Shown here one piece after another: positions 36,263 to 40,499 of a DNA stretch of 64,000 bases (position 1 is the first letter of the stretch; each line of letters starts with the position of its first letter). The position numbers and the translations under genes are program-made. The DNA comes from Anolis carolinensis (lineage: Eukaryota), in contig NC_085845.1 of NCBI RefSeq assembly GCF_035594765.1, forward strand, positions 128,418,897 to 128,482,896, given 5' to 3'. Under the pieces are notes generated by a model. The model was not told the DNA's origin, made no database searches, and was given only the letters and a program-made list of their open reading frames with translations.

Positions 36263-38002
36263 TTGTTCCCTAATTGCAACAGTTCTACTAGTTGCAGGTC
36301 CATTTCCAGGCACAACTGAAAATGCTGGTTTTGACAAAAAATACTCTACATGACTCAAGCTCCAAGTTATTTAAAGGAGTGCATTCTCCATTCCATGCTT
36401 TGAGATTTACTAGGAAGGTCCTTCCTCTGTCTACATCCCAACTCCCCTCACATGTACATTTGGTGGGCACATGGGAGATGGTCTACCCAATTACTATTTT
36501 GTTGTACGATTGCATTTTTATGGTTTAAGATTTTAAGTGTGGGATTTTTTTGCCAGTTAAATTACTTCTTACTGCAACTAATACATTAGGTGAGATATAA
36601 ATATAACAGCAACTTTAATCAAAATTACTGGAAATCTTTGCAGAACCTGAAATAGACTTATCCCGATAGCCTCCTGCCAACCTCATATCTCCATCTATCT
36701 CTTTCTGTGAGAGCCCCTTGTCTTGACACAAAGTTTGTGGTTCTCCAATATTAATTGGAGGCAATAAATGTGCTAAACCAAACCCACTTTTCTAATTCCT
36801 CTGAGAGTTGGTTTTTCCATTGCCATCTATTTTAGTTGTTCTCGGGAAAAAGCAGTGGCTCCAATATTACTAAACATTTTACTAAAAGCAAATAGTAATT
36901 TTGCATTTTATATAAGGGACACTAGATTACTAAACAACTGCATTTAAAAGGACTAAGGTGTGACATGCTTTTATTCTATGATATCAAAAGAGGGAGTTGG
37001 GTGCAACCTTGGATGTTTTCAGGATAGAAAGAAGTTGCCTAAGTGAGATGTTTCCTCCCATTTCTGTGAGATACAAATCTTTTCCTGTGTCCCTGAGGCT
37101 GAACAAAGAGTAGCTGGATACTGTTATGTCTTAAGTGTGCTTAACTTGTATATTGCTGCTGTCATTAATGGCATATTCTTTGGAGTTTAAGCATAGGCTG
37201 GGATACAGTATAATTGCTGATGTAGATCATCCATCCATGTTACGACTCACACACACCTTACTAAAATCCTCTGTTTGACCCACAGTTACTGTAAGCTGCG
37301 CTAGCATTGTTTACAGTCTAAATCTAATTATGTTGTATTCGGAAATCGATATCTAATATTTATTTTCCCATTGTTTTTTTCTCATCGCTGCCAGCGTGGC
37401 AGAAAAAATGCCAATATTTTGAACTCATACCTTTGCTTTGTTGCATTTCCAAAGGCAGAGACAAGGTCAGTTGTGACAGAATATGTGGCAAATCCCCAAG
37501 ATGTTCTACAATTAATAGGCGGTTATCAGACAGCAGGATCAAAGCCTGCAAGCAAATGTCAATGACTAGCAAATGATAACTGCAGGGTCTCTTTGAGCAT
37601 AAATGAGACCATTGATTTTATCCAGAGAACTGCCACCTGATTATCTCTAAGGGCTTGACAGTTCATAGACTAAATATTTGTTGAAAGGGCTTTTTGTTTT
37701 GTTTTGTCTGATCCTACCCGACAAATTGGCTATCTACAAGCTGACACTTTTCTAAATAATTCTCTATTAATATGAACTTGTAATGAATCAAGAGAAGTTC
37801 TCTTGTATTTCATAGAGTAGGAATAAGAAGTGACATCATTTGTTGTATAACTCTTCGTAATAAAGGCAAGATAAGATCCTGCATTGCCCAATGTAACTAC
37901 AGTGGTTCGACCATCATAGCTAATACTGATGGTGCGACCAGCCTACCTTTCAGCCAGGTAGTGCTCCAACTGAAGACTGTTCAAGATATTATAGATTGAA
38001 GT

Positions 38003-39260
38003 TATGTGATTCACGGTTTGGATTTTCCTTTCCTGACTGCTGTCTCGTACCTTCTGCCTGTCTTTTTTTTTTTTTGTCAGTTTCTCTTCAGTTTCTCTTC
38101 CTCTCATCTCTTTCTGTTCCTCTCATTTCAGGGGTTCAGTGTCTCTGGAGTCCTTTGATGCTGTCTTAATATCTGTATTTATATTTCAATCTTGTCTTGA
38201 TTTTTGGGTTTTGCTGGCTGGCTTGCCTTGGGGGAATCCTGTTCCCTCTTGCCTGGTCCCGATCTGCTTCCCTGTGCTTCACTGCCGGGTGCCTCTGGGG
38301 GAGTCTCCTTGAGGGGGATACTCCACTGGGCACCATTGGCCGATAGTGCATGGGTTTTTGCACCCCTTTAACCTCAGTCCGCTTGGGGGGGAGGTTAAAA
38401 AAGCCCTCCAGGATCGGTTCTTCAGGTCGCAACTCCTGGAGCTCCAGGTCGCTGCTGCTTGCCACTTTGCCACCAAACCCGGAATAACACAGGAAATCGG
38501 AATCAAATTTAAATTAGAACCTGAAATGTATTTACAGTAGAGTCTCACTAATCCAAGCCTTGCTTATCCAAGCTTCTGGATTATCCAAGCCATTTTTGTA
38601 GTCAATGTTTTCAATATATCATGATATTTTGGTGCTAAATTTGTAAATACAGTAATTACAACAGAGTATGACTGTGTATTGAACTACTTTTCTGTCAAAT
38701 TTGTTGAGACTTTACTGTACTAAGCTTTACAAATTCAAAATTAAAAAAAAATGAGGACAGAATATTTTTCTACATAAGCACAGCAGCCAGACTAACAATA
38801 GCGAAAGTCTGGAAAGGGAAAAAATTTCCTACTCCCAAGGAATGGTTAATCAGAATCTTGGACATGATACAAATGGATAAGCTAACACAAAAAATAAGAG
38901 AGGGTAAAAATAAAACAGACTAGACAAACTTCATAAAATTCTTGATAAAAAGAAGAATGGACTTCATGATAGACTTATCTACAATATAAAACGGTTTAAG
39001 CGAAAAGAGACTACGGGAAAATACCAATATGTAATCAACGAAAGAGAAAACTCCGAGGTCAAGATGGGAAGTCAACCATTTTTTTTATTCTTTCTTTCTT
39101 TCTTTTCTTTTCTTTTCTTTTCTTTCTTCCCCCCCCCTCCGTTTTTCTCTCTTCACCTATTTTCAGAACCCTTTCACCTCCCTCACTTTCCTATCAATAT
39201 ATTGTTCCATCACTTTCGATGTATTATGTTTCTTCACAAAATAAAAAATAATGACTCAAA
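38003..39260 (+). mobile_element. 5'-inverted L1 insertion: inverted putative 5'UTR (38003-38484, minus) plus ORF2 C-terminus and 3'UTR (plus)
   Basis: Perfect 20-bp TSD AAGATATTATAGATTGAAGT at 37983-38002 and 39261-39280; plus frame ITQEIGIKFKLEPEMYL..NEDRIFFYISTAARLTIAKVWKGKKFPTPKEWLIRIL; AATAAA and short A tail. Confidence 0.85.
38535..38717. mobile_element. Mariner-type MITE nested in L1
   Basis: TA duplication (38533-34, 38718-19); TIR CAGTAGAGTCTCA / TGAGACTTTACTG; the L1 peptide resumes on the other side. Confidence 0.9.
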
Positions 39261-40499
39261 AAGATATTATAGATTGAAGTCTTGGAAATGACATTTCCAG
39301 TACTTTCCTGGTTGATAGGCACAGTATCAGGAGGGATCATATGGGGGCAACTGCTTTAGTCAATGTACCCCACACCCAGGGGAATGCTGAGATACCATTT
39401 CCCAGTGCCTGAATCTGCAAGATCTCAGAAACCTTTCAGTTGGGACACGGCCTGATTGTAAAAGTGGGTTGTTGAACTCACAAATGTGGAATTCAAACAT
39501 TACAAGATTATGCCAAACAAGATACGTGGCTCACACAACTTTTTTGCTTTGCCCAGCAAGAGCCATTACTATATTTGAAATGCTGCATCGCATATGTTTG
39601 TCTTGGGTTTGAAGTTCCTTTCCTCTTCAGGGAGTCTTTGCTTTGCTCATATAACCATAGGAATCAGACCCCCCCTCTTTCTCTATCTATCAAAGCTTGC
39701 ACAATCTACTATTCTTTGAAGTGTGGCCCATTGAAGATGAGTTGTTACTTTCCTGCTTAATGAGATTTATTTTGAGCTGACCAGAAAAAAAATAAGATCT
39801 ATTCCTTGTTTAGAACACTCATTTAGTGATTAAGGAGTGTGAACATTTGAAAAGGAACATCCATGCTTGAACAGCTGCTCATCTCTGGAATTTCCTCATT
39901 AAACATGATCAATAAATGATCAAGTGCAATACTTCTGCACTTGAGCATCACCCATGTCAGAAACTCGTGAACAGGTATGCATCAAGCTCACAATAGTTGG
40001 TTGTTTGTATCACCCTCTTCTTGGACTCTGGAGGACCTACATACTTATTTGATCAAAACCACTCATATTTGGTCTCAATTTTCATTTTTGTTTTTCTCAC
40101 TGGAATGATCAATAGTGCCTGTGCAGCCTGTCTGGGGCCCCATTTACTATGTTATGGTATTTAGGGTTCTTCAGATAACTGTTCCAGAATAGTTGTTTCT
40201 TTCTTCCAAACAGAAATGAGGAGAAGATGACCACTTCTTGTTTGGGGAAAAATCTTTTATGAACTGAAAATAGTTGGAGAATCTAGGATAACAAATTGAC
40301 CAGTAGCATCATTCACTGCTTTGAGGATATTATTCCGTTTTTGGACGCAGCACCAAAAATTAAATTCCTCTGTTCTCGGACATAAGGTGGTGCATGGAGA
40401 CCCTCGGAGGAATCTTAGAAATGCTTTGGGTGCTACGTGCAGTCCTTAGGCCATACCTTCCTCACCCCAAGCTGAATACTTATGGAAATGAGATTTTAA

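What the first reader, a model, noticed from the sequence alone, without database searches (positions are those of the whole stretch)
37983..39280. L1 insertion joining an inverted 5'UTR directly to the ORF2 C-terminus within a 20-bp TSD
Seen: a perfect 20-bp TSD encloses a GC-rich 480-bp segment whose minus strand starts TTCCGGGTTTGGTGGCAAAGTGGC at 38484, abutting a plus-strand L1 ORF2 C-terminus, 3'UTR and tail. Known: twin priming gives 5' inversions and is described mainly for mammalian L1. Inference: the second primer annealed about 0.5 kb from the RNA 5' end and copied to the terminus, deleting ORF1 and most of ORF2. That would leave an L1 internal promoter pointing leftward into host DNA. 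The 5'UTR identity rests on recalled lizard L1 starts (GACTTCCGG-like).
Basis: partly seen in the sequence, partly recalled or inferred. Interest (0 to 1): 0.7.

Follow-up and report, generated by a model that had tools for sequence, protein, structure and literature searches.

The report
Lizard L1: flipped front, missing middle
A lizard LINE-1 jumping gene landed as just its front 0.5 kb, backwards, joined to its last 0.6 kb with about 5 kb missing between them; this is likely an extreme case of "twin priming", a copying accident well known in mammals, and several other copies of this lizard family show the ordinary form.

Summary
A unique, perfect 20-bp target-site duplication encloses the inverted first ~470 nt of an L1 5'UTR, joined through a 2-nt overlap to the last ~590 nt of the same L1 family. 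A MITE was inserted later. Both halves best match one near-full-length copy (95% and 98%). About 5.0 kb is missing, against a median of 14.5 bp in human twin-priming insertions. The inverted piece ends 3 nt from the L1 5' terminus, which favours reverse-transcriptase run-off at insertion over a later deletion. Of 98 other copies of the family, 7 are also 5'-inverted, 6 with TSDs and gaps within 17 nt, so twin priming is routine in this lizard family (7%; 31% in human/chimp). Open points: one RNA or two; no primer microhomology seen at the left junction; no empty site found; the central junction is only partly bridged in public contigs; promoter activity is untested. This scan earlier noted twin-primed reptile LINEs on other DNA, one in this genome. 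Verdict: an unusual variant of a known process.

The parts
37983..38002 (+). left target-site duplication (20 bp); its 3' end is the inferred second primer
38003..38484 (-). inverted L1 5'UTR fragment, about nt 4-469 of the element (lacks the first GAC); about 20 nt shorter than relatives 9 nt inside the left breakpoint
38044..38051 (-). splice-donor-like site (AG|GTACGA here; AG|GTAAGA in relatives and in runs X1, X5, X9 via 38047 G>T); use untested
38483..38484 (.). inversion junction, 2-nt overlap (AA)
38483..38989 (+). end of L1 ORF2, from about nt 5,460 of the element; interrupted by the MITE and carrying a premature stop
38535..38717 (.). internally deleted MITE with TA duplication (38533-38534, 38718-38719), inserted after the L1; Tc1/mariner type is recalled from TA plus terminal inverted repeats
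38990..39260 (+). L1 3'UTR with T- and C-rich tract, AATAAA and a short A tail
   Evidence: tract as described for lizard L1 in PMC5381506
39261..39280 (+). right target-site duplication (20 bp)

Best explanation
This is a single L1 insertion, likely made by twin priming on one full-length L1 RNA whose middle ~5 kb was never copied. Steps: (1) the bottom strand was nicked at 5'-TCTT/GA and primed cDNA from the 3' tail, which stopped after ~590 nt (structure shown, stall inferred); (2) the top strand was cut 20 bp away and its 3' end primed a second cDNA ~470 nt from the RNA's 5' end (inferred); (3) that cDNA ran to within 3 nt of the 5' terminus (endpoint shown, run-off inferred); (4) the two cDNA ends were joined through AA (overlap shown, annealing inferred); (5) a MITE later inserted at a TA (shown). 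The result is a dead copy with a partial 5'UTR facing left into host DNA; whether it drives transcription is untested.
For: One exact TSD encloses both halves. Geometry is as twin priming predicts: RNA-3' end of the inverted piece at the left TSD, RNA-5' end at the junction (model in PMC2912911). Both halves are closest to L049 (95.2%, 98.0%), next L050 and L052 (87-92%), then L053 and L055 (76-83%). The inverted piece stops at the family's 5' terminus, a sequence found only 6 times in the genome at up to 1 mismatch. 7 of 98 other family copies are 5'-inverted, 6 with 12-17-nt TSDs. The left junction is bridged in 5 of 8 public runs laid and the right in 3 of 4.
Against: The gap of ~4,990 nt is far from the human median of 14.5 bp (bioRxiv 10.1101/2024.08.27.596794) and from the -12 to +17 nt of the six lizard copies with TSDs. 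No microhomology between the primer end and the L1 sequence at the left junction in L050-L052, whereas only 28 of 605 human inverted L1 lack it; the closest copy L049 is deleted there, so the test is weak. No special pairing is predicted between the two breakpoint regions (-10.7 vs background mean -14.1 kcal/mol). The central junction is passed by only 14 letters in one listed contig. Sequence cannot separate one RNA from two. Within each identity tier the order differs between the halves.
Confidence: 0.55

Rival explanations
1. Twin priming in trans: the second primer copied a different L1 RNA of the same family, possibly a short 5'UTR-only transcript ended at a premature poly(A) signal just past the breakpoint.
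For: Explains the 5-kb gap without a loop. Inverted chimeras of L1 with other RNAs are attributed to twin priming (PMC4476161; PMC13174262). AATAAA lies about 37 and 52 nt downstream of the breakpoint in L052, the first two in the element.
Against: AATAAA occurs 35 times in 5.5 kb of L052, so proximity is weak evidence. Both halves are closest to the same copy, which fits but does not require a second RNA.
Confidence: 0.25
2. Ordinary short-gap twin priming on a template that already lacked the middle (an internally deleted source copy or a spliced RNA).
For: Internally deleted copies exist in this family: L056, L049, L050, L092.
Against: None of the other five 5'-end copies joins ~nt 470 to ~nt 5,460. 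The only AG|GTRAG donor in L052 lies upstream of the breakpoint and is retained; no GTRAG lies between it and nt 5,424.
Confidence: 0.12
3. A near-complete twin-primed L1 inserted first, and a later genomic deletion removed the 5 kb.
For: A 2-nt overlap also fits end-joining repair. An unchecked note of this scan (e1-9909329) reports a near-lossless full-length inversion in this genome.
Against: One deletion breakpoint would have to fall within 3 nt of the old inversion junction.
Confidence: 0.05
4. Assembly artefact, or two independent insertions at one site.
For: No listed contig bridges the central junction by 31 letters on both sides; no empty allele was seen.
Against: One unique TSD brackets both halves; both outer junctions recur in independent runs; one contig of X10 runs 38397-38498 across the junction.
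Confidence: 0.03

Closest known systems
5'-inverted (twin-primed) mammalian L1 insertions (model of Ostertag and Kazazian 2001, not held; read as described in PMC2912911 and bioRxiv 10.1101/2024.08.27.596794)
   Same: Single TSD, inverted 5' piece, forward 3' piece with tail, short overlap at the inversion junction.
   Different: Gap ~5.0 kb instead of tens of bases; second primer near the 5' end (human inversion junction median at 5.15 kb); no primer microhomology detected; reptile host.
Inverted RNA/L1 chimeras (U5, U1, U2, tRNA, 5S, mRNA; PMC4476161, PMC13174262)
   Same: An oppositely oriented, unrelated-looking piece sits 5' of a short L1 3' end inside one TSD.
   Different: Here the inverted piece is the L1's own 5'UTR, so a second RNA is possible but not needed.
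Lizard clade-1 L1 with long 5'UTR (PMC5381506)
   Same: 5' terminus begins GACTTCCGGT, 5'UTR about 1.07 kb, 3'UTR with poly-C/poly-T tract.
   Different: Spacing to the (A/G)TGGCG motif differs from the published consensus and CpG is low (o/e 0.33-0.43); the named family was not identified.

Membership tests
5'-inverted (twin-primed) L1 insertion | One TSD of typical length enclosing both segments | tested here: met
   20 bp exact, unique; empty site not seen
5'-inverted (twin-primed) L1 insertion | Inverted upstream L1 segment with its RNA-3' end at the 5' TSD, then forward 3' segment | tested here: met
5'-inverted (twin-primed) L1 insertion | Both segments from the same L1 family | tested here: met
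   both closest to L049, same identity tiers across 5 copies
5'-inverted (twin-primed) L1 insertion | 3' terminus with A tail at an endonuclease-like site | tested here: met
   family terminus plus 4-6 A; nick TCTT/GA, 4 of 6 to the recalled human TTTT/AA
5'-inverted (twin-primed) L1 insertion | Microhomology at the inversion junction | tested here: met
   2 nt AA; short enough to arise by chance
5'-inverted (twin-primed) L1 insertion | Microhomology between target end and RNA at the 5' junction (95% of human cases) | tested here: inconclusive
   none against L050-L052 (~88% identical); closest copy deleted there
5'-inverted (twin-primed) L1 insertion | Short deletion or duplication at the inversion point (typical, not obligatory) | tested here: not met
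   ~4,990 nt vs median 14.5 bp
5'-inverted (twin-primed) L1 insertion | Both cDNAs from one RNA molecule | not testable with these tools
   sequence alone cannot tell
L1 clade, lizard long-5'UTR group | Endonuclease and RT ORF2, L1-type ORF1, GACTTCCGGT start in full-length relatives | tested here: met
   RVT_1 in L049 and L050, Exo_endo_phos_2 in L053, weak Transposase_22 (E 0.019, below cut-off) in L049 ORF1; 5' start
Retrotransposon-derived host promoter | Transcription starts in the element and reads into host DNA | not testable with these tools
   only contigs were available, none on record as RNA

The most novel reading that the evidence does not exclude
The lizard L1 machinery can prime its second cDNA kilobases from the first (at the far end of a looped RNA or on a second RNA), routinely flips 5' pieces, and here delivered an outward-facing L1 promoter fragment with a splice donor, stripped of its genes, that is widespread in the species and drives a host transcript.
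Probability: 0.07. Interest if true: 0.7.

Novelty: new variant of a known kind. Interest (0 to 1): 0.4.

Why it matters
A cell-culture study found 5' inversions for human L1 in human cells but none in chicken DT40 cells and concluded that they depend on host and element (PMC4245944). Natural inversions in about 7% of a lizard L1 family show the pathway works in a reptile germ line. A 5-kb gap shows the second primer need not land where the first cDNA stalled, which bears on whether the template is one looped RNA or two. If the fragment were active, it would be a compact route to new host promoters.

Tried and rejected
No RNA holder listed; X17, guessed as RNA, covers parts of the left flank in contigs only, which says nothing on expression. 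Empty site sought in 8 runs: none among the rows shown (15 of 90 joints; 24 of 93 loose ends and no joints); organism B (X21) lays only on 37080-37800, short of the site. Nested-repeat route to an empty site failed: the left flank is single-copy and the right has only short weak matches. RNA pairing between the breakpoints: none above background. Splicing as the cause of the gap: no suitable donor. Pfam on the ORF2 end: no hit. Host gene: 12 long window ORFs scanned, only two RT hits; 94 ORFs in 22000-38000 read by eye, none recognised, not scanned. The bacterial promoter scan is irrelevant to a vertebrate. Papers not held: Ostertag and Kazazian 2001, Kojima and Okada 2009, Ichiyanagi 2007 and two further PMC ids.

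Full report
Observation. The 20-mer AAGATATTATAGATTGAAGT lies at 37983-38002 and 39261-39280, exact, and nowhere else in the window. Random 120-nt window pairs share 13 nt or less, with one exception of 32 in about 1,980. Between the copies lie a 482-nt segment (50% GC against 38-41% in flanks), an A-rich ORF end interrupted by a MITE, a T/C-rich tract and a short A tail.

Identity of the halves. Searching the own genome, the minus strand of 38003-38484 gave 18 matches from 14 candidates, and 38720-39080 gave 40 scored of 466 candidates. Both hit one near-full-length element, L049, about 6.4 kb apart there including two later inserts. Identities for the 5'UTR and ORF2 end are 95.2/98.0% to L049, 89.5/90.0 to L050, 87.4/91.9 to L052, 83.3/79.3 to L053 and 76.3/82.0 to L055: same tiers, with order swapped inside the tiers. 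The relatives carry RT (L049, L050), endonuclease (L053) and a weak L1 ORF1 hit. Their 5' end, GACTTCCGGT, matches the start of the published lizard clade-1 consensus (PMC5381506, section 9 read). An anole-type lizard is inferred from this and from genome size. The 5' terminus occurs 6 times in the genome at up to one mismatch, the window being one.

Anatomy. In L052 coordinates the inverted piece covers about nt 4-469 counted from the GAC, of a ~1,070-nt 5'UTR (ORF1 start inferred), and the forward piece starts near nt 5,460. The gap is 4,991-4,993 nt and includes the rest of the 5'UTR, ORF1 and most of ORF2. The junction CCGG-AA-TAAC has a 2-nt overlap. At the left junction relatives continue TCTAAAC where the primer would need ACTTCAA, so no terminal microhomology is seen, but L049 is deleted there. 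The MITE (38535-38717) duplicated a TA that is single in relatives and has lost about 140 nt relative to a 323-nt copy.

Independent samples. Contigs bridge the left junction in 5 of 8 runs laid (X1, X2, X5, X9, X10; four studies, one of which may be the assembly source) and the right junction in 3 of the 4 runs laid there. The central junction is passed by only 14 letters in one listed contig, below the tool's 31-letter rule. No empty allele appeared among the rows shown. X1, X5 and X9 read T at 38047, giving the family's AG|GTAAGA donor-like site on the minus strand.

Family survey. Loci plus four long copies collapsed to 75 + 26 = 101 unique copies; three that ran off their loci were extended and are not inverted. 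Dropping the window and two copies picked by 5'UTR (L052, L053) leaves 98. Seven are 5'-inverted: L072, L108, L117, L120, L164 and L181 with exact TSDs of 17, 15, 12, 14, 14 and 15 nt and gaps of -12 to +17 nt, and L081 with a 1,768-nt gap and no TSD found. That is 7.1% (Wilson 3.5-14.0%) against 639 of 2,068 in human and chimpanzee (PMC2912911, section 8; Fisher p 3e-8). The sets are not like for like: mine is older, incomplete, needs no TSD and misses very short inverted pieces.

Mechanism. Twin priming accounts for the single TSD, the orientation and the junction overlap. The inverted piece ends 3 nt from the RNA's 5' end, as expected if the second cDNA ran off the template; a later deletion would need to hit that point by chance. 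The unusual feature is the gap: in 1,703 human tumour inversions 66% have a deletion, median 14.5 bp, with junctions clustered near the 3' end (bioRxiv 10.1101/2024.08.27.596794, passages; its supplements are closed and may hold the upper tail of that distribution). I put one full-length RNA at 0.55, a second RNA at 0.25, a pre-deleted template at 0.12, later deletion at 0.05 and artefact at 0.03; twin priming in some form totals about 0.95.

Function. The copy is dead. The 5'UTR fragment faces left and keeps the conserved start minus GAC and a donor-like site; CpG o/e is 0.33, like relatives. No host exon was recognised nearby and transcription could not be tested.

Literature. PMC4245944 (passages) found inversions with human L1 in human cells, none in chicken DT40, and one Nimb-2 insert. 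PMC5389967 (passages) describes anole LINE truncation; 'inversion' occurs only in its reference list. PMC4476161 and PMC13174262 (passages) attribute inverted RNA/L1 chimeras to twin priming. PMC3747384 (passages) added nothing. Six searches (listings, with the papers above opened) showed no report of lizard L1 inversions, but key papers are not held, so absence from print is not established. Unchecked notes of this scan report twin-primed reptile LINEs elsewhere, including a full-length L1 in this genome.

Verdict. Real, correctly described, and most likely an extreme long-gap product of twin priming in a lizard L1 family where ordinary inversions are common. New variant of a known kind; interest 0.4.

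Noticed in passing
L072:7120-8675, L108:837-1281, L117:470-1265, L120:7152-7728, L164:355-1541, L181:6534-7008: Six further 5'-inverted copies of the same L1 family with 12-17-nt TSDs and near-zero gaps: textbook twin priming in a lizard.
   Followed up: yes
L124:7643-8455 (= L081): Inverted mid-ORF2 piece joined to a 464-nt 3' end with a 1.77-kb gap; no TSD found.
   Followed up: partly
L056:801-2281 and 5953-7496: L1 with two internal deletions (82 nt of 5' end joined to the ORF1 end, then to mid-ORF2), present twice 5.15 kb apart with the same upstream flank; junctions are not GT-AG.
   Followed up: partly
L178:1881 (minus): An independent truncated copy with its own TSD starts within about 2 nt of the window's forward breakpoint; coincidence or an RT pause site.
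   Followed up: partly
L049:7467-7470: The closest long copy lacks about 640 nt of 5'UTR up to just before the ORF1 start and sits inside another L1.
   Followed up: partly
window 48048-50906 (-) and 56713-57453 (+): A 951-aa endonuclease/RT frame and an RT fragment of other LINEs.
   Followed up: no
window 37080-37800: The only unique part of the left flank that lays in organism B (about 94% over 623 nt, with indels not in multiples of 3); possibly a conserved non-coding stretch that the flipped 5'UTR faces.
   Followed up: no
L057:3737-8387: LTR-retrotransposon-like frames (by eye) inserted in an older L1 copy.
   Followed up: no
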